Below, piece after piece: positions 9,253-23,250 of a stretch of 64,000 nt of DNA. Numbering within the stretch: position 1 is the stretch's first letter; each line of letters opens with the position of its first letter. The notes below the pieces were generated by a model. It saw nothing but the letters and a program-made list of their open reading frames with translations. It had not been told where the DNA came from and searched no databases. Source of the DNA: Candidatus Amulumruptor caecigallinarius (lineage in GTDB: Bacteria; Bacteroidota; Bacteroidia; Bacteroidales; Muribaculaceae); assembly GCA_023665605.1 (NCBI GenBank), contig JAMPDP010000001.1, forward strand, positions 456,115-520,114, read 5' to 3'. The position numbers and the translations under genes were made by a program.

Positions 9253-10452
9253 ATGCGACAGATTATAAGGCACTTTACTGACGACGACCTCTACAAGTTC
9301 ACCATGTGCTGCGCGGTTATTGACAACTACCCGCGCACCCAGGTGCGTTATCGGTTTACCGACCGCGATGACACAGTCTATCCACCGGGCTTTGCCGAAC
9401 TTGTAATTGAGCAGGTGAAAATGCTCGAGGATGTGACCATCACCGATGAGGAAGTGGAGTTCATGCGCCGGCGATGCAATTACATCCCGTCATGGTTTCT
9501 GAGCTATCTGAAAGGCTACCGCTATGACTCGCGCCGTGTCAAGGCGTGGCAGGATGATGCAGGGCACCTCCACATAGAGTTCGAGGGAGCGTGGAGCGAC
9601 ACAATCCTTCTCGAAGTGAAGGTACTTGCCATCGTTTCGGAACTATATTACATGGTCACCGGACAGGATGCGACGTTGGACTACGAGTCCTATTATCATG
9701 CCTCTGCGGCCAAAGCCCGCAGGCTGATTGAGGCAGGGTGTTCATTCAGTGACTTCGGCACTCGTCGACGGGCTTCTTTTCAGGCACAGGATGTAGCCGT
9801 GAGAGCCATGAAAGAGTGTCGGGCTGACGGGCCGGGGAGGTTTGTCGGCACGAGCAACGTGTATCTGGCCATGAAATATGACCTCACGCCAATCGGCACC
9901 ATGGCCCATGAGCTTGTGTGCGCCATTGCCGGGATGTACGGGCCTCTGATGGCCAACAACATAGCCATGAAAGTGTGGGCTCATACCTACCGTGGAGCTC
10001 TCGGCACATTTCTCTATGATACATACGGATGGCGTATCTTCAGTCTGAATTTCTCGGAGGACTATGCCAATATGTTCAAAGGGCTGAGGGTGGATAGTGG
10101 CGACAACTTTCATGAGCTTGACTTGATAGTGGACAAGTACCGGTCGCTCGGCATCGACCCGGCAACCAAGCAGGTGGTGTTCAGCAACGGGCTTGACGTG
10201 GACTCGGCTATTGAGGTGCAGCGTTACGCCGAGGGGAAGTGCATCCCCTCATTCGGCATCGGCACACATTTCACCAACGATTTTCCCGGAGTGAGACCAC
10301 GGAACATTGTCATCAAGCTTCTGGCCGTCAAGATTACCGAGTCGTGGCCCCGCTACTCCCCTACCTGCAAGCTGAGCGAGGACAAGGGCAAATACACCGG
10401 CGAACCGGCCACTGTACGTCGCTTCCTCGACACCCTCTGGCTTGATGCCTGA
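9253..10452 (+). CDS. pncB: Nicotinate phosphoribosyltransferase
   Basis: 399 aa with the NAPRTase N-terminal signature (LYKFTM...) and a C-terminal PRTase domain. Confidence 0.8.
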   Translation: MRQIIRHFTDDDLYKFTMCCAVIDNYPRTQVRYRFTDRDDTVYPPGFAELVIEQVKMLEDVTITDEEVEFMRRRCNYIPSWFLSYLKGYRYDSRRVKAWQDDAGHLHIEFEGAWSDTILLEVKVLAIVSELYYMVTGQDATLDYESYYHASAAKARRLIEAGCSFSDFGTRRRASFQAQDVAVRAMKECRADGPGRFVGTSNVYLAMKYDLTPIGTMAHELVCAIAGMYGPLMANNIAMKVWAHTYRGALGTFLYDTYGWRIFSLNFSEDYANMFKGLRVDSGDNFHELDLIVDKYRSLGIDPATKQVVFSNGLDVDSAIEVQRYAEGKCIPSFGIGTHFTNDFPGVRPRNIVIKLLAVKITESWPRYSPTCKLSEDKGKYTGEPATVRRFLDTLWLDA

Positions 10453-10566
10453 CAGCCCCTCGACATACATTCTCGCAGTAATGTAGCTATCAGAGAGTCA
10501 TCACAACACCATAATTTCAAAAATACCAAAATCCTAAAGATTTTTGAAAATAGAAGTTAATCCCTT

Positions 10567-10574
10567 ATATTTGC
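10567..10574 (+). promoter_or_regulatory. TAnnTTTG -7 element (TATATTTG) about 16 bp upstream of the GHKL-ATPase gene
   Basis: Motif match. Lies in the AT-rich flank. Confidence 0.35.
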
Positions 10575-10589
10575 GAAGTCGACTTAGAG

Positions 10590-11549
10590 TTGTCACTTAC
10601 GACTTCGTCTGTTGATTTCATTGTATACATGCCAAACCTAACGATCAAGGATATCCCGGTCCCTGCCGTCGGTAGAGAGGAGCGCATCGGAAGTGTGCTC
10701 AATCAGGTGTGTCATATAATGTATGATACCGAGAATACTCTTGCCGCAGGGCAACATAAAGTCGCCTGGGACTTTAGACAATGTTCTTTTCTGCATCCTT
10801 ATTTTCTCGGTGCTTTAGCCATATTGAAGCAGATGTATGGCGAGACAGTGGTGTGCAGAAATATTCCAAGTGCGATCAGCTCATATCTGGATGTAGTATA
10901 TTTCCACAAGCCATTACGTATAGAAGAGGATATGGTTGCCGATGAGATTTGGAGCCGATACAAACATAAGACTTATTTACCGATTTGTGAGTTTATCCCA
11001 TCCAATAAATCATCCGTAAAAGCGCAGGAGCTGATCCAATCCACAATAAAGAGCCAACTTGGCGGGAGAATTCATTCATTTCTGTCCTACCTTCTGAGTG
11101 AGCTGATAGACAATATAACGGACCACTCACATAGTGAAGTTGGGTATGTGTTTTGTCAATCAATCCCAAGATTAAATCAGCTTCATGTATTTATTGCCGA
11201 TACTGGTCGAACCATTTATTCATCATACGCCACTGACTCACGCTATTCTTCGCTGCTAAGCATTGCAGAGTCATCGGCGCTATTGCTTGCACTGAAAGGG
11301 AAGTCAACAAAAAACAGGCCGGAAAATGAGAATCGCGGATATGGTATTTCCAAGTCAATAAACTTGATTGTAAATGGGCTTGGCGGAGAGTTCTTCATAC
11401 TCTCAGGTTCGGCTTTTGCCAGAAATGATGCTCAAGGAGAAATAGTTGCCGACTTGCCTCCCGAACTAAGATGGAACGGTACAATCGTGCTCCTCAAACT
11501 TCCAATGAATCCGCCGGAAGGTCTTAATATTTATAATTACATAGTTTGA
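10590..11549 (+). CDS. GHKL/Bergerat-fold ATPase (histidine-kinase-like / RsbW-like ATP-binding domain) with an unrecognised N-terminal domain of about 160 aa
   Basis: N-box ELIDNITDH, G1 IADTGRTI, G2 NRGYGIS, G3 LVNGLGGEF. The ORF is AT-rich relative to its neighbours. 319 aa. Confidence 0.6.
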   Translation: MSLTTSSVDFIVYMPNLTIKDIPVPAVGREERIGSVLNQVCHIMYDTENTLAAGQHKVAWDFRQCSFLHPYFLGALAILKQMYGETVVCRNIPSAISSYLDVVYFHKPLRIEEDMVADEIWSRYKHKTYLPICEFIPSNKSSVKAQELIQSTIKSQLGGRIHSFLSYLLSELIDNITDHSHSEVGYVFCQSIPRLNQLHVFIADTGRTIYSSYATDSRYSSLLSIAESSALLLALKGKSTKNRPENENRGYGISKSINLIVNGLGGEFFILSGSAFARNDAQGEIVADLPPELRWNGTIVLLKLPMNPPEGLNIYNYIV

Positions 11550-11555
11550 CATACT

Positions 11556-11894
11556 ATGCTCATAAGCATATCATCAGCCATAGGTCGCGATTTGCGCACC
11601 CGTTCATTTTTCAGACGTGACATTGACACATTGCTTGGTCAATGCAGAAACGCTATTGTATCACTGGATTTTACAGGAGTGACATTCATATCCCGGTCAG
11701 TAGCGGATGAAATATGCAACCTACTGAGAGATTGTCCAAATGTAACTTTAAAGGGGATGACCGGTGATGTATCAATGATGTACCGTGTAGTAGCAAAAGC
11801 ACGCTCACACCCGAGACTATTCCCTGATACCAACACAACCGTGGTTCATCTTGAATCACTTGATCAGATGACGTCATTCTTTAATGCATTGTGA
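11556..11894 (+). CDS. Small STAS-like protein (DUF4325-like, anti-sigma-factor-antagonist fold), 112 aa
   Basis: It starts 6 bp after the GHKL gene stop on the same strand. Its size and sequence character match STAS-like DUF4325 proteins (...SLDFTGVTFISRSVADEI...). Confidence 0.5.
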   Translation: MLISISSAIGRDLRTRSFFRRDIDTLLGQCRNAIVSLDFTGVTFISRSVADEICNLLRDCPNVTLKGMTGDVSMMYRVVAKARSHPRLFPDTNTTVVHLESLDQMTSFFNAL

Positions 11895-11981
11895 CAGCAT
11901 AGACAACTCTTTGGCATAAAAACAGGGGCGGGTGGGTGAATGAGTTGAAAAATTGCTATATTTGTTGGTGACAATCAACAG

Positions 11982-12731
11982 ATGGGCTCTGACGTTACAG
12001 CATCCGATACAAACCGCAACGGCTCCGGCACGCTTTATCTGCTTCCGGTGCCGCTGAGTGACACCCGCCCCGACGAGGTGCTCCCCGCCGCCAACATAGC
12101 CGTGGCCTCGCGGCTGCGGCATTTCATAGTGGAGAATGTGCGTTCGGCGCGACGCTTCCTGAAGCGTTGTAATCCGGCGATTGAGATTGATGCGTTGACA
12201 TTCAGTGTGCTTGACGTCAACACTCCCGAAAGTGATGTTACAGCCATGATGGCACCTCTGCGACATGGTGAGGATATGGGGGTAATCAGCGAAGCCGGTT
12301 GTCCGGCTGTGGCCGACCCCGGTGCTCTCGCAGTGGCCGAAGCGCAGCGGATGGGTGCCAAGGTGGTACCTTTAGTGGGACCGTCAAGCATCCTCATGGC
12401 ACTGATGGGCTCGGGCTTCAATGGGCAGAGTTTCGCCTTCAGGGGCTATCTCCCGATTGATGAGCATGAGCGAGCATCAGAACTGCGTCGCCTTGAGCGG
12501 ATCTCGGCCAAGGAGGGGCAGACGCAGATATTCATCGAAACGCCATACCGCAACACGCGGCTTATAACCACCATGCTTTCCACTCTCGCCGATGACACGC
12601 AGCTGTGCGTGGCCACAGACATCACCGGTCCTGCGCAGAGGATTGTCACCCGCAGCATAAAGTCATGGCGTGGTCAGGATGTGACATACTGCCACAAAGT
12701 GCCCACCATCTTCCTGATACACCGATACTGA
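11982..12731 (+). CDS. rsmI: 16S rRNA (cytidine1402-2'-O)-methyltransferase
   Basis: Tetrapyrrole-methylase fold with an N-terminal LYLLPVPLSD motif. 249 aa. A TATATTTG motif lies at 11957-11964. Confidence 0.8.
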   Translation: MGSDVTASDTNRNGSGTLYLLPVPLSDTRPDEVLPAANIAVASRLRHFIVENVRSARRFLKRCNPAIEIDALTFSVLDVNTPESDVTAMMAPLRHGEDMGVISEAGCPAVADPGALAVAEAQRMGAKVVPLVGPSSILMALMGSGFNGQSFAFRGYLPIDEHERASELRRLERISAKEGQTQIFIETPYRNTRLITTMLSTLADDTQLCVATDITGPAQRIVTRSIKSWRGQDVTYCHKVPTIFLIHRY

Positions 12732-20166: not shown

Positions 20167-21239
20167 TTGAGGTACTCTGTGAAGAATGCGGCAATCTCGT
20201 CGAAGGGGATGATATCCACACGGTCATAGAGGTCGGTGTGGCTGGCACCTTTCACGGTGAGCATCTGCTTGTTGTCCCCCTTAAGTAGTGCGAAGGTGTC
20301 CTTGCCGAAGTAGTAGGAGTGGGCAGCATCGCCGTGCACTATCAGCACTGCACTCTCCAGCTCATCAGCATACTCAAAGAACTTGAAGTTTATGAACGGA
20401 AGCGTTGATGTGGTGTTCCAGCCGTCAGTGGAGTTGCCCGAGCGGGGATGGAAGCCACGGGGAGTCTTATAGTAAGCGTGATAATCCTTAACAAACTGCG
20501 GAGCATCATCAGGGAGGGGGTCAACCACTCCTCCGGCACGCTGATACTGTCCCGTAGCGTAATCCTTGGTTCGCTGCTCGGCGAGTGTCTTGCGCATAGC
20601 GTTGCGCTTCTCGGCGGAATTGTCTGCATCAAAATAGCCGTTAGCGCTGACGCGTGTCATGTCATACATTGTAGATGCCACCGTAGCCTTGATGCGCGGG
20701 TCATTGATGGCGGCCTCTATCGCAATGCCACCCCATCCGCAAACACCAAGGATGCCTACGCGGGCTGTATCCACCTTGGGCTGCACCATCAGGAAATCCA
20801 CTGCGGCTGAGAAATCCTCCGTATTGATGTCAGGCGATGCCACTCGGCGTGGCATTCCGCCGCTCTCGCCGGTGAATGATGGGTCGAAGGCTATGGTGAG
20901 GAAGCCGCGCTCAGCAAGCTGCTGGGCATAAAGGCCGCTGGACTGCTCCTTGACGGCGCCAAACGGCCCGCTGACGGCGATAGCCGGAAGTTTGCCGGTT
21001 GCTCCCTTGGGAATGTACATATCTGCGGCAAGCGTTATTCCGTAGCGGTTCACGAAAGTAACCTTCCTATGGTCTACCTTGTCACTCTTGGGGAAAACCT
21101 TATCCCACTGCTGGGTCATCTCCAGCTTCTCGACGGGAGCGAGCGATGTGTTGGTATTAGGATTGTTCATAGTCTGTGAATTTAATGTCAGGGCACCTGT
21201 GATTAGTGCCGTTGTTAAAAGTATCGTAAACTTGTCCAT
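20163..21239 (-). CDS. Secreted alpha/beta-hydrolase (dienelactone-hydrolase / prolyl-oligopeptidase-like)
   Basis: The start was trimmed to [19 protein letters not shown] (signal peptide). Motif GVCGWGG. The original ORF has a 5' extension that overlaps the promoter region. Confidence 0.65.
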
Positions 21240-21549
21240 TATGTAATTTGTGTTTCCGAGTCGGTCATGGAGGCCAAACACTGCAAAATAACAAAATTTC
21301 CAGTTTGAAAGCCTTACCATTTCCTCTGCAATCCTTACCAAAACCCCAGATTCTACCGTTTATTCCTCAAAATACCCCCCCTATTCAGAGTCACCAAATC
21401 ATCAATCTCAAATATCTCCGGGGTCAAAAACCGTGCTTTCACAGTTACAATCATAATCCAATAAAGTCAAATACAGAAAAATTATTCATATATCGAACAA
21501 TTTTTCGGTATTCTGATTTTCAGTAATATTTGCTTACTTTGCAATCTGA

Positions 21550-21921
21550 ATGGAAAATATATTTATGGCCTACGAAAAGAAAATAAAGGTTGACCTTGAC
21601 TGTCCTTTGCGGCTCACGATGAGCCTTATAGAGTCCAAATGGAAATCCTGCATCCTTGATGAGATGCGTTCCGGAAACCCAATGCGTCCGAGCGAGATGC
21701 ACAAGTGTCTTCCGGAGGCAGCTCCGCGTGTGCTTGACATCCAGCTGAAAGAGATGGTGGAGGACGGCCTTGTCACCAAAACCATATATCCCGAACTTCC
21801 ACCTCGCTCGGAATACAGAATAACCGCATTGGGTCTTTCGTTGTTACCTATTATAGACGCGATGCTGAAATGGGGTGAAGACCATTTCTACATCTTTGAG
21901 AAAAAATATGGCAAACAATAA
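21550..21921 (+). CDS. HxlR-family winged-helix transcriptional regulator
   Basis: Family signature. Divergently oriented to the hydrolase gene. The start is probably M at 21565. Confidence 0.8.
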   Translation: MENIFMAYEKKIKVDLDCPLRLTMSLIESKWKSCILDEMRSGNPMRPSEMHKCLPEAAPRVLDIQLKEMVEDGLVTKTIYPELPPRSEYRITALGLSLLPIIDAMLKWGEDHFYIFEKKYGKQ

Positions 21922-22162
21922 AGGCACAAGCAGCAATTGAAGGAATACCGATGCAGGAACGAGGCTCTTTTAAGAGCTTGTAGCCTTGACCGTAGCCGAG
22001 CCTATGCCTCGCCTCGCAATCCGGCTGAAATCAATGCTCTCCAATCTGCCTCTAATAAAGTAAATTACGGTAATTTCGGAGGCATTTATATCATATGTCT
22101 GGAGGGCTGATTACATGGTCAATGGAAAATTTTGAGGCTATAACCGATAATCTCAAACCGCA

Positions 22163-22435
22163 ATGAAAGCAACGCTTATAAAGATAAAGAAATGGCTTGC
22201 ATCACTTTCATACCGCACAGGTGTGATTGTGCTTATCGCATGTGTATTGTTCTACATCATCTCTTTTGCACAAATGTTACTTCCTATTTCGGTAGCCGCC
22301 AAGGGAACATTATGGGTGATATTCTTCGGACTTGCAAAAACTGCACAATATTCTGCTCTGCTTATATTGGGAAAGGCCGGTATCGAGAGTATTCGCAAAC
22401 GATGGTGTCGAAACCAAATTGAGGATGCAGGCTGA
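22163..22435 (+). CDS. Hypothetical small 2-TM membrane protein (90 aa)
   Basis: Two hydrophobic helices. It lies in the AT-rich tRNA-adjacent region. Coding status is uncertain. Confidence 0.3.
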   Translation: MKATLIKIKKWLASLSYRTGVIVLIACVLFYIISFAQMLLPISVAAKGTLWVIFFGLAKTAQYSALLILGKAGIESIRKRWCRNQIEDAG

Positions 22436-22857
22436 AAAATACTCTTTATGATATTATATGCCGTATAGCCGCTATTGGATGAAAGAAAATCATGCGCGGA
22501 CCCGAATAGCGCATCACTGCCTTGATTTTCTTTTTCATATAGGGACGATAGCAATGCACCATACACTTGCGGCAACTGGTCTTATCTTCTCTTCCTCTTT
22601 AGTCATATAGTGGGCTTGGGTGAGTGTATGAGCCAAAATAAGTGTCAGACCTTAAAACACCCACTACGCCGTTATTGTTCATCGCCAATCAAATTCAACC
22701 CTTTTTTGAGACAGCATCAATAATATTTTAGTAATTTTAAGGAGATTTTTTGTCCACGCCGAGCATAAAATTCAATTTGGTGGACTATTCGTGGACAAAT
22801 ATAAATTAGTAAAACCTCCAAACATTTGAATAACAAATGAATGGAGATTTTAATAAG

Positions 22858-22931
22858 TGGTCCCACTAGGGCTTGAACCTAGGACTCCCTGATTATGAGT
22901 CAGGTGCTCTAACCGACTGAGCTATAGGACC
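22858..22931 (-). tRNA. tRNA with CAT anticodon (elongator Met or lysidine-modified Ile2), 74 nt including CCA
   Basis: The reverse complement reads GGTCCTATAGCTCAGTCGGTTAGAGCACCTGACTCATAATCAGGGAGTCCTAGGTTCAAGCCCTAGTGGGACCA. It folds as a cloverleaf with T-loop GGTTCAAGCCC and anticodon loop CTCATAA. Confidence 0.85.
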
Positions 22932-23250
22932 TTGGTTGATGCTGTGAGTATGTGATGACCCGTTTACGGTGACAAAGTTAATTATTTTTTCTGAATTGTG
23001 GAAATCTATTTTCTATTTTTCCTTCAAAGTCTATTTTCATCTTACTTTTCTCAAATTCTTGCGTCTTCATTTCTGCTACTGATGTCGAATGATGCAGAAT
23101 TTACACTGATGAAATACTCCACGACCGGATAGCTGCGTGAGGTTTACGCGGCATATCCGGCCGTGGTGGTTGATCTGATGGCAGTACACCTACGAGGGCT
23201 TAGGTGAGGACATGACAGAAGGTCCTCTCACAGCCGTCAGGTGATGGATG

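What the first reader, a model, noticed from the sequence alone, without database searches (positions are those of the whole stretch)
10453..11981. AT-rich two-gene islet between pncB and rsmI: GHKL ATPase with a novel N-domain plus a STAS-like DUF4325-type partner. Candidate undescribed partner-switch or defence module.
Seen in sequence:
- An abrupt drop in GC across about 1.5 kb separates two high-GC housekeeping genes.
- The block holds two co-directional ORFs 6 bp apart, with their own TAnnTTTG promoter.
- ORF1 (319 aa) has a complete Bergerat ATP-binding fold in its C-terminal half: N-box ELIDNITDH, G1 IADTGRTI, G2 NRGYGIS, G3 LVNGLGGEF.
- The N-terminal roughly 160 aa of ORF1 match nothing I recognise. 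I see no HisKA/DHp domain and no TM segment.
- ORF2 (112 aa) has the size and sequence character of STAS-like DUF4325, the anti-sigma-antagonist fold.

Established knowledge: GHKL kinase plus STAS pairs form partner-switching modules (RsbW/RsbV, SpoIIAB/SpoIIAA). In those modules the kinase phosphorylates or sequesters the STAS protein. Here the order is kinase first, and there is no sigma factor, PP2C phosphatase or other pathway member anywhere nearby.

Inference:
- This is a horizontally acquired, self-contained two-component module.
- Its position in an AT-rich islet, rather than in an operon with a regulated target, fits a conflict or anti-phage sensor-effector pair. It would equally fit a toxin-antitoxin-like switch.
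- The novel N-domain is the likely sensor or effector.
Basis: partly seen in the sequence, partly recalled or inferred. Interest (0 to 1): 0.82.

Follow-up and report, generated by a model that had tools for sequence, protein, structure and literature searches.

The report
Phage-type kinase plus STAS switch cassette
A foreign, AT-rich two-gene cassette in a gut Muribaculaceae genome encodes a STAS-GHKL serine-kinase-like protein and its small STAS (DUF4325-type) partner, a relative of the recently described DNA-damage-sensing VapK/VapS pair that lacks the toxin or DNA-binding output and is carried mostly by Bacteroidales prophages.

Summary
Window 10453-11981 is a low-GC islet (GC3 0.42 and 0.38, against 0.72 +/- 0.08 for the window). 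It carries two co-directional genes 6 bp apart behind a TAnnTTTG box.

ORF1 most likely starts at ATG 10629 (306 aa). Its N-terminal half is not novel: it is a STAS domain, fused to a SpoIIAB/RsbW-type GHKL kinase domain with an intact N-box and G-boxes. ORF2 (112 aa) folds as a minimal STAS domain and is a divergent DUF4325.

The ORF1 family aligns over its full length with VapK (hhalign E 5e-8), including the ssDNA-stacking Phe54. VapS is itself a solid DUF4325 member. The closest known systems are therefore VapKSC and CapKS (Chambers et al., EMBO J 2026).

Two defining outputs are missing: there is no VapC/PIN toxin and no HTH on either protein. In 167 of 170 related loci K is followed directly by S, and the other three contigs end there. 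Across 58 K clusters no third gene is conserved. The cassette is frequent on viral contigs, next to integrases and CI/LexA-type repressors.

Best reading: a mobile kinase-substrate switch used in phage-host conflict, with an unknown, unlinked target. It is a new variant of a known kind.

The parts
10453..11981 (+). AT-rich islet between pncB (9253-10452) and the rsmI-like gene (11982-12731). It holds the whole cassette.
   Evidence: GC is 0.40-0.45 against 0.53-0.62 in the flanks. GC3 is 0.42 and 0.38 against a window mean of 0.72, sd 0.084. There are no flanking direct repeats, no integrase and no tRNA. Rfam gave no match.
10512..10552 (.). AT-rich inverted repeat: 13-nt arms, 92% complementary, 15-nt spacer. 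It lies upstream of the promoter box. It may be an operator or the end of the pncB transcript. Its function was not tested.
   Evidence: the repeat finder pair I4.
10566..10573 (+). Bacteroidota-type -7 promoter box TATATTTG (TAnnTTTG), 55 nt upstream of ATG 10629.
   Evidence: The pattern search found 31 matches in the window against 13.7 +/- 3.5 expected. Reading it as the promoter is an inference from the known Bacteroides promoter consensus.
10629..11549 (+). Gene K: a 306-aa STAS-GHKL protein (VapK-like serine-kinase candidate). An alternative TTG start at 10590 would add 13 residues that are not conserved.
   Evidence: It is 100% identical to the NCBI 306-aa hypothetical protein of Ca. 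Amulumruptor caecigallinarius. The AF2 model has pLDDT 88.6 and pTM 0.88. hhalign against VapK gives probability 94.8% and E 5.4e-8 over 266 columns. It matches phrog_3364 over its full length at 3e-28.
10641..11003 (+). N-terminal STAS domain of K (about aa 5-125). It contains the invariant W47 and the motif C-S-F54-L-H-P57, which aligns with VapK C-R-F54-L-R-P.
11010..11513 (+). C-terminal GHKL (Bergerat-fold) kinase domain of K (about aa 128-295). N-box E158-N162-H166 is at 11100-11126. G1 D191-x-G193 starts at 11199. The lid and G2 region is STKNRPENENRGYGIS, followed by GLGGEF.
11556..11894 (+). Gene S: a 112-aa single-domain STAS protein (divergent DUF4325, VapS-like architecture). The candidate phospho-acceptor S46 is at 11691-11693, within the motif S46-R47-S48-V-A-D51-E52.

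Best explanation
The islet is a horizontally acquired, autonomous two-gene 'K-S' cassette. K is a STAS-GHKL protein of the VapK/CapK lineage of anti-sigma-factor-like serine kinases. S is its cognate small STAS (DUF4325-type) substrate.

Proposed mechanism:
1. K is switched on by a nucleic-acid cue. By analogy with VapK and CapK this would be single-stranded DNA, bound in the groove between K's own STAS and GHKL domains, with the conserved Phe54 taking part.
2. K then phosphorylates S on the conserved Ser/Thr at the N-cap of helix alpha2. This is S46, with S48 as the alternative.
3. Phosphorylation changes what S binds.

Unlike VapKSC (PIN toxin) and CapKS (wHTH repressor), no output component is linked. 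The target of S, or of K, must therefore be encoded elsewhere in the host or in an infecting or resident phage.

The cassette circulates mainly on temperate Bacteroidales phages. There it sits in the lysogeny region, next to the CI/LexA-type repressor and the integrase. It also occurs as small chromosomal islets like this one. Its most likely biological role is in phage-host conflict: lysogen-expressed immunity, abortive infection, or control of prophage behaviour.

Shown: the folds, the domain order, homology to VapK, intact catalytic and acceptor motifs, strict K-S linkage, purifying selection, foreign composition, and the association with phages.

Inferred: phosphotransfer from K to S, ssDNA as the activator, and the conflict function.
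For: Architecture:
- The AF2 models are confident: pLDDT 88.6 for K and 93.7 for S.

Homology to the characterised system:
- The K family aligns with VapK over 266 columns (hhalign probability 94.8%, E 5.4e-8). K C-S-F54-L-H-P lines up with VapK C-R-F54-L-R-P, and F54 is the residue required for VapKSC protection.
- The K N-box SELIDNITDHS matches CapK SELIGNVRDHS, and N162 aligns with the catalytic N218 of CapK.
- VapS is a strong DUF4325 member (62.7 bits).
- S-family members hit DUF4325 weakly, and more distant relatives score above threshold.

Acceptor site: across ORF2 and 132 representatives of the wider S family, position 46 is Ser (123) or Thr (11) in every sequence, which is the pattern expected of a phospho-acceptor. 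Position 48 tolerates Ala, Pro and Gly. R16, R47, D51 and E52 are invariant in those same sequences; only the VapS row added for comparison differs.

Linkage and selection:
- S follows K in 167 of 170 loci, and the other three contigs are truncated there.
- dN/dS is about 0.13 for K and 0.25 for S.

Mobility and phage association:
- GC3 is an outlier.
- The cassette is AT-richer than its flanks in 46 of 51 K clusters.
- There are 109 confirmed hits on IMG/VR viral contigs.
- K matches phrog_3364 over its full length.
- Bacteroides phage BF1-TP2 carries gp43 (ATP-binding protein) followed by gp42 (DUF4325).
- A tyrosine integrase lies within 6 kb in 9 K clusters, and a CI/LexA-type repressor sits directly upstream in 3, with Peptidase_S24 at 6e-8 in L095.
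- The same layout is reported for Francisella prophage KIRK (PMC7924643).
- Neighbours include Fic, a SocA/Panacea antitoxin, T5orf172 and MNT/HepT.
Against: - No biochemical step was tested.
- S is only weakly similar to VapS (hhalign probability 20%, E 1e-3) and shows no similarity to CapS. The K-S substrate relationship therefore rests on fold, gene linkage and the conserved Ser/Thr.
- The ssDNA-contacting K237 and K239 of CapK are not conserved in K. The activating ligand may therefore differ.
- No effector is identified, so a defence role is argued only from context. 40 of 58 K clusters were seen only on non-viral metagenome contigs.
- The window copy lies among housekeeping genes, not in a defence island.
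- PADLOC finds no defence family apart from a partial match to the N-terminus of one DrmA model.
- dS is near saturation (about 2), so the dN/dS values are rough.
Confidence: 0.6

Rival explanations
1. Two-gene toxin-antitoxin-like pair. K is itself the effector: a kinase or ATPase that, once activated, phosphorylates or sequesters essential host or phage proteins. S is its antidote or decoy substrate and holds K in check until the cue arrives.
For: - No third gene is conserved. 21 of 48 K clusters have no same-strand gene within 120 bp on either side.
- The cassette is small and mobile, and often sits next to other toxin-antitoxin genes: Fic, SocA/Panacea, MNT/HepT.
Against: - In the closest characterised relatives the STAS protein, not the kinase, carries the output (PMC13373217).
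- The gene order is kinase first and antidote second, 6 bp apart. This says nothing about toxicity.
- No toxicity data exist.
Confidence: 0.2
2. Degenerate VapKSC: a remnant operon that lost its VapC toxin and is decaying or functionless.
For: - K is a full-length homologue of VapK, and the VapS family is DUF4325.
- A distant relative in the Methanothermobacter prophage psiM100 fragment IFa has a third gene, ORFD, directly after K and S.
Against: - 58 K clusters spanning 33-71% identity all keep intact K and S, with invariant catalytic and acceptor residues.
- dN/dS is well below 1 for both genes.
- The wider S family has 544 representatives of 50%-identity clusters. Nearly all are stand-alone proteins of about 110 aa.
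- No PIN gene recurs among the neighbours.
Confidence: 0.04
3. An ordinary Rsb/SpoIIA-type partner switch that regulates a sigma factor or a housekeeping pathway of the host.
For: The folds are those of SpoIIAB/RsbW and of RsbV/SpoIIAA. JGI names two homologues 'anti-sigma regulatory factor (Ser/Thr protein kinase)'.
Against: - No sigma factor or PP2C phosphatase lies in the window neighbourhood or in the related loci.
- K carries an extra N-terminal STAS domain that RsbW and SpoIIAB lack.
- Foreign composition, varied contexts and carriage on phages argue against a core regulator.
- The pair is absent downstream of pncB in 80 related genomes.
Confidence: 0.06
4. A phage counter-defence or phage-regulatory device. 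A phage-borne K-S pair mimics or intercepts host CapKS/VapKSC signalling, or couples DNA-damage sensing to prophage induction decisions.
For: - Many copies lie on viral contigs, in the lysogeny module beside CI/LexA-type repressors and integrases.
- The related host systems sense ssDNA (PMC13373217).
Against: - Many copies, including this one, are chromosomal islets without phage genes. There, a phage-serving function would not be maintained.
- A kinase is not needed for simple antitoxin mimicry.
- No direct evidence exists.
Confidence: 0.1

Closest known systems
VapKSC (VapK kinase, VapS antitoxin, VapC PIN toxin; Chambers et al., EMBO J 2026, PMC13373217)
   Same: - K has the VapK architecture: STAS-GHKL, about 300 aa, no HTH. 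It aligns with VapK over its full length (E 5.4e-8), including the Phe54 motif.
- S has the size and architecture of VapS: about 112-116 aa, a STAS domain plus a C-terminal helix, and a conserved Ser/Thr at the start of helix alpha2. It belongs to the DUF4325 neighbourhood of which VapS is a clear member.
- The gene order is K then S, tightly linked.
- It is often found near defence or toxin-antitoxin genes.
   Different: - No VapC/PIN gene is present here, and none recurs in 58 related K clusters.
- S is barely alignable with VapS. It carries its own invariant motif, [ST]-R-S-x-A-D-E plus R16, in place of VapS A-S-P-F-F-N.
- This clade is mostly carried by Bacteroidales phages.
CapK/CapS transcriptional controller of immune operons (same paper)
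   Same: - The GHKL core is similar, and the N-box is nearly identical: SELIDNITDHS in K against SELIGNVRDHS in CapK.
- Both pair a kinase with a STAS substrate, and the kinase has its own internal STAS domain.
   Different: - K lacks the N-terminal HTH of CapK, and only the GHKL part aligns.
- S lacks the wHTH of CapS and shows no sequence similarity to it.
- No immune operon lies downstream. Here the next gene is rsmI, and elsewhere the downstream genes are heterogeneous or on the opposite strand.
SpoIIAB/SpoIIAA and RsbW/RsbV partner-switching modules
   Different: - K has an additional fused STAS domain.
- There is no sigma factor, no PP2C phosphatase and no operon with a regulated target.
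- The cassette is mobile and phage-associated.
- Only 2 of 33 family members touch the HATPase_c_2 model.
Lambda rexA-rexB and similar lysogen-expressed exclusion genes (an analogy of position only)
   Same: In several prophages the pair sits directly downstream of the CI-type repressor, on the same strand, and near the integrase (L005, L095, L132).
   Different: There is no sequence or fold relationship. Exclusion activity has not been tested.

Membership tests
VapKSC | Kinase subunit with a STAS domain followed by a GHKL domain, and no N-terminal HTH | tested here: met
VapKSC | Conserved aromatic residue at the predicted ssDNA site of the kinase STAS domain (VapK F54, CapK W68) | tested here: met
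   K F54 is at least 90% conserved and aligns with VapK F54 in the shared motif C-x-F-L-x-P. Its role in ssDNA binding was not tested.
VapKSC | Small STAS (DUF4325) partner with a conserved Ser/Thr acceptor and a short C-terminal helix | tested here: met
VapKSC | Third gene encoding a VapC-like PIN toxin | tested here: not met
   The islet has no room for a third gene. No neighbour family is shared by more than 9 of 58 K clusters, and that one is an integrase. The downstream genes are heterogeneous or on the opposite strand.
VapKSC | ssDNA-activated phosphorylation of S, release of the toxin, and protection against phage | not testable with these tools
   This needs biochemistry and plaque assays.
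CapK/CapS | HTH domain at the N-terminus of the kinase | tested here: not met
   K is 306 aa and its STAS domain starts at about residue 5. Only the GHKL region aligns with CapK.
CapK/CapS | STAS partner fused to a wHTH DNA-binding domain | tested here: not met
   S is 112 aa and consists of the STAS domain alone. CapS hits HTH_24 and S does not. hhalign finds no similarity.
CapK/CapS | Position immediately upstream of an immune operon | tested here: not met
   The next gene here is rsmI, which has its own promoter box. Related loci have varied neighbours.
RsbW/RsbV and SpoIIAB/SpoIIAA partner switch | SpoIIAB-type GHKL serine kinase fold with the N-box Asn and the G-boxes | tested here: met
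RsbW/RsbV and SpoIIAB/SpoIIAA partner switch | Operon or regulon link to a sigma factor, usually with a PP2C phosphatase | tested here: not met
   Neither is found within the surrounding genes of the window or of the related loci.
Pfam DUF4325 (PF14213) | Score above the gathering threshold of 23 bits | tested here: inconclusive
   ORF2 has no hit at E up to 1. 20 of 31 family members hit at a best E of 9e-4. Distant relatives P0137 and P0170 score 29.3 and 27.6 bits. VapS scores 62.7 bits.
DISARM DrmA | Large helicase protein of the DISARM operon | tested here: not met
   Only positions 77-252 of the 1750-position PADLOC model match, covering K residues 86-270. There is no helicase, DUF1998 or methylase nearby.

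The most novel reading that the evidence does not exclude
The K-S pair is a complete system in two proteins. It would be a phage-borne, lysogen-expressed nucleic-acid-sensing kinase whose phosphorylated or unphosphorylated STAS partner acts directly on a conserved, unlinked host or phage target, such as RNA polymerase or a sigma factor, the replication machinery, or an orphan toxin. The result would be to block superinfecting phages or to gate prophage induction. That would be a new output class for the CapK/VapK sensor family, and a widespread immunity-region function of gut Bacteroidales prophages.
Probability: 0.3. Interest if true: 0.7.

Novelty: new variant of a known kind. Interest (0 to 1): 0.55.

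Why it matters
CapK/VapK kinases were only recently shown to turn DNA damage or ssDNA into a phosphorylation signal that switches on immune operons or a PIN toxin. The cassette found here keeps the sensor kinase and the STAS substrate but has no linked output. It is nevertheless strictly paired, under purifying selection, and common on prophages of gut Bacteroidales, often beside the repressor and the integrase.

Finding its target would show a third way this sensor module is wired. It could also identify a common lysogenic-conversion or immunity function in human and animal gut phages.

There is a practical point as well. The S gene is unannotated in the source genome, and both proteins fall below Pfam thresholds, so such cassettes are invisible to current defence-finder pipelines.

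Tried and rejected
1. Empty-site test. 80 Muribaculaceae loci carrying pncB (75-83% identity) were fetched. None has rsmI, K or S within 6 kb, so the pncB-rsmI junction is lineage-specific and no empty site can be shown. Exact-protein look-ups of pncB and rsmI returned only 3 contigs, all with the islet.

3. NCBIfam had no family for either protein. PADLOC matched only the N-terminus of one DrmA model. DISARM membership was rejected.

4. The search for a conserved third gene clustered all neighbours within 4 kb of 58 K clusters. The only recurrent families were an integrase and phage backbone genes. A PIN reading of psiM100 ORFD, based on its N-terminal motif, was not confirmed by Pfam.

5. 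Flanking direct repeats, an integrase or a tRNA for the islet: none convincing. Intrinsic terminators: none. Rfam: none.

6. Plasmid collection: no homologue.

7. The afdb50 fold library was unavailable. BFVD gave one good but unnamed viral match and little else.

8. A literature lead on STAS proteins in Francisella CRISPR regulation turned out to be unrelated.

9. The Coprococcus phage hit (27% identity) lacks an S-like neighbour and was not pursued.
Full report
**What is in the sequence**

The window comes from a Muribaculaceae metagenome-assembled genome. ORF1 is 100% identical to a hypothetical protein of 'Candidatus Amulumruptor caecigallinarius'.

Between pncB (9253-10452; NAPRTase, 1e-45) and an RsmI-like methylase gene (11982-12731), GC drops from 0.53-0.62 to 0.40-0.45. 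GC3 is 0.42 for ORF1 and 0.38 for ORF2. The mean for 37 ORFs of at least 200 aa in the window is 0.72 +/- 0.084, and ORF1 is the lowest of them.

The two ORFs are co-directional and 6 bp apart. A Bacteroidota-type -7 box, TATATTTG, lies at 10566-10573. The motif is enriched in the window, with 31 copies against 13.7 expected. rsmI has its own copy at 11957-11964.

The NCBI protein and all homologues begin at the Met encoded by ATG 10629, so ORF1 is most likely 306 aa rather than 319. The islet has no flanking direct repeats, integrase, tRNA, terminator or Rfam match.

**What the two proteins are**

Taken alone, each protein is only marginal in Pfam: HATPase_c scores 17.7 bits, STAS scores 15.9 bits, and DUF4325 is not hit. 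The families are more informative.
- 22 of 33 ORF1 relatives hit HATPase_c.
- 22 of 31 ORF2 relatives hit STAS, and 20 of 31 hit DUF4325.

AlphaFold2 models built on these alignments are confident, with pLDDT 88.6 and pTM 0.88 for ORF1 and pLDDT 93.7 for ORF2.

ORF2 matches STAS domains only: RsbR 9.1, SLC26 9.0-8.8, MlaB 8.4, RsbS 8.1, RsbV 7.5 and SpoIIAA 6.8.

The Bergerat-fold motifs are invariant across the ORF1 family: E158, N162, H166, D191, G193, and the lid and G2 stretch STKNRPExENRGYGIS.

**Link to a characterised system**

A full-text search led to Chambers et al., EMBO J 2026 (PMC13373217). The paper describes two related systems.
- CapK (HTH-STAS-GHKL) is an ssDNA-activated kinase. 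It phosphorylates Ser54 of the repressor CapS (STAS-wHTH) and so de-represses downstream immune operons.
- VapKSC consists of VapK (STAS-GHKL), the antitoxin VapS (a STAS domain plus a short C-terminal helix, with acceptor Ser48) and the PIN toxin VapC. It protects E. coli against phage Bas42, and protection requires VapK Phe54.

I recovered the VapK and VapS sequences from the paper's AF3 files, and CapK and CapS from its reporter plasmid.
- The ORF1 family aligns with VapK over 266 columns (hhalign probability 94.8%, E 5.4e-8). ORF1 C-S-F54-L-H-P aligns with VapK C-R-F54-L-R-P.
- Against CapK only the GHKL core aligns (E 1.7e-5). The N-boxes are nearly identical, and ORF1 N162 falls on the catalytic N218 of CapK. 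CapK K237 and K239 are not conserved.
- VapS is a strong DUF4325 member at 62.7 bits. This also explains an older note that a VapC-like PIN group is 'transcriptionally coupled to DUF4325 genes' (PMC5499597).
- ORF2 is only marginally alignable with VapS (E 1e-3, probability 20%) and not at all with CapS.
- Distant members of the ORF2 family score above the DUF4325 threshold.

A profile search of 1.84 billion cluster representatives found 544 relatives of ORF2. Nearly all are stand-alone proteins of about 105-120 aa. I aligned 132 of them with ORF2, and added VapS as one further row for comparison (134 rows in all). The counts below are for ORF2 and its 132 relatives.
- Position 46 is Ser in 123 and Thr in 11, so it is Ser or Thr in every one of the 133.
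- R16, R47, D51 and E52 are invariant in all 133.
- Position 48 is mostly Ser but tolerates Ala, Pro and Gly.

A Ser/Thr-only position at the N-cap of helix alpha2 is where SpoIIAA, CapS and VapS are phosphorylated. S46 is therefore the best acceptor candidate.

**Distribution and context**

ORF1 has about 100 relatives of about 300 aa at 33-71% identity, from gut Bacteroidales. It matches the phage family phrog_3364 over its full length at 3e-28.

Scans found 109 confirmed copies on IMG/VR viral contigs and 265 in metagenome contigs.

In 170 fetched loci that carry K, an S homologue follows immediately in 167. The other three contigs end there.

The loci fall into 58 K clusters at 85% identity. 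No neighbouring gene family is shared by more than 9 of these clusters, and that family is a tyrosine integrase, usually the next gene on the opposite strand.

The next gene downstream varies. Among 51 clusters where it could be seen, it is on the opposite strand in 19, and it is close on the same strand in 18. In those 18 it is heterogeneous: Fic, a SocA/Panacea antitoxin, T5orf172, a GT2 glycosyltransferase, OmpH, TrkA or an unknown protein. In 21 of 48 clusters there is no same-strand gene within 120 bp on either side.

In three clusters the pair lies directly downstream of a CI/LexA-type repressor; these include L095, one of the nearest relatives of the window copy and its closest on a viral contig (64% identity). 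L095 hits Peptidase_S24 at 6e-8, and L005 and L132 share the arrangement. The Francisella prophage KIRK shows the same arrangement in its published table: a CI repressor, a 293-aa protein, a 112-aa DUF4325 protein, and an integrase a few genes further on (PMC7924643).

Bacteroides phage BF1-TP2 encodes gp43 (ATP-binding protein) followed by gp42 (DUF4325). The 'inserted fragment IFa' of the Methanothermobacter prophage psiM100 carries a K-like ORFB, a DUF4325 ORFC and a third gene, ORFD.

The cassette is AT-richer than its flanks in 46 of 51 clusters, with a mean GC of 0.38 against 0.45.

Both genes are under purifying selection. dN/dS is about 0.13 for K and 0.25 for S, although dS is near saturation.

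**The window copy**

None of 80 related Muribaculaceae genomes has K, S or even rsmI downstream of pncB. The only contigs with identical pncB or rsmI carry the identical islet. Foreign origin is therefore supported by composition and by the patchy, mobile distribution of the cassette, not by an empty site.

**Interpretation**

The pair is a stand-alone 'K-S' version of the VapK/VapS-CapK/CapS kinase-substrate module.

What is shown:
- the folds;
- the domain order;
- homology to VapK;
- intact catalytic and acceptor motifs;
- strict pairing of K and S;
- purifying selection;
- mobility;
- association with phages.

What is inferred by analogy: K phosphorylates S at S46 (or S48) when activated, probably by ssDNA, and this switches S between partners.

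The output is unknown. There is no PIN toxin, no HTH on either protein, and no conserved third gene.

I favour a role in phage-host conflict, expressed from the lysogeny region of prophages. Confidence is about 0.6 for the molecular core and lower for the biology.

The rivals are:
- a toxin-antitoxin pair in which K is the toxin (0.2);
- a phage regulatory or counter-defence device (0.1);
- an ordinary sigma-factor switch (0.06);
- a decaying VapKSC remnant (0.04).

**Verdict**

The 'novel N-domain' does not hold, and 'undescribed' holds only in part.

This is a new variant of a known kind. It is of moderate interest, for three reasons: its output is missing, it is abundant in gut prophages, and current annotation and defence-finding tools do not see it.

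Noticed in passing
window 11556-11894; L091 7304-7642: The S gene (ORF2) is not among the called genes of the sequence-identical NCBI MAG contig JAMPBT010000002.1. Its exact protein is also absent from the protein collection, where the best hit is 99% identical. The S gene therefore appears to be unannotated in the source genome.
   Followed up: partly
window 10512-10552: AT-rich inverted repeat TAATTTCAAAAAT / ATTTTTGAAAATA with a 15-nt spacer, just upstream of the TAnnTTTG box of gene K. It may be an operator or the end of the pncB transcript.
   Followed up: no
window 21000-23000: A second low-GC patch (GC 0.40-0.43). It holds a 123-aa ORF that by eye looks like an HxlR-type winged-helix regulator (21550-21921) and a 90-aa hydrophobic ORF that is probably a membrane protein (22163-22435). 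Neither was scanned against any family library. It may be another small acquired islet.
   Followed up: no
K residues 86-270 (window 10884-11438): PADLOC DrmA model PDLC02567 matches K through positions 77-252 of its 1750 positions (E 2e-11 for K, and 20 of 33 family members hit). This suggests that some DISARM DrmA helicases carry a K-like GHKL module at their N-terminus.
   Followed up: partly
L094 3911-6532 (Methanothermobacter prophage psiM100, inserted fragment IFa): The fragment annotated in the GenBank record as 'inserted fragment IFa' consists of a K-like ORFB (28% identity to K), a DUF4325 ORFC (29.4 bits) and a 492-aa ORFD. The N-terminus of ORFD (MKILVDTNILI) looks PIN-like but gave no Pfam hit. 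This may be an archaeal VapKSC-like insertion.
   Followed up: partly
L005 7284-9966; L095 5234-7263; L132 5550-7246: In three prophage-like loci the K-S pair lies directly downstream of a CI/LexA-type repressor on the same strand (15-49 bp). The position resembles that of lambda rexAB in the immunity region.
   Followed up: partly
L001-L004 5147-6680; L008 6363-6993; L224 7302-8162; L139 7266-7790: Other toxin-antitoxin-type genes recur beside K-S cassettes: Fic with an ADP-ribosylglycohydrolase, an MNT/HepT pair, Fic alone, and a SocA/Panacea antitoxin.
   Followed up: no
P0225 (1187 aa): The S-family profile gave a seven-stretch hit to a protein made of cadherin-like repeats. It is a false positive and is unrelated to STAS.
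   Followed up: yes
window 9253-12731 compared with L011-L090: The gene order around pncB is not conserved among 80 Muribaculaceae genomes with 75-83% identical pncB. carB is nearby in only 2 of them and rsmI in none. Local synteny in this family is unusually fluid.
   Followed up: no
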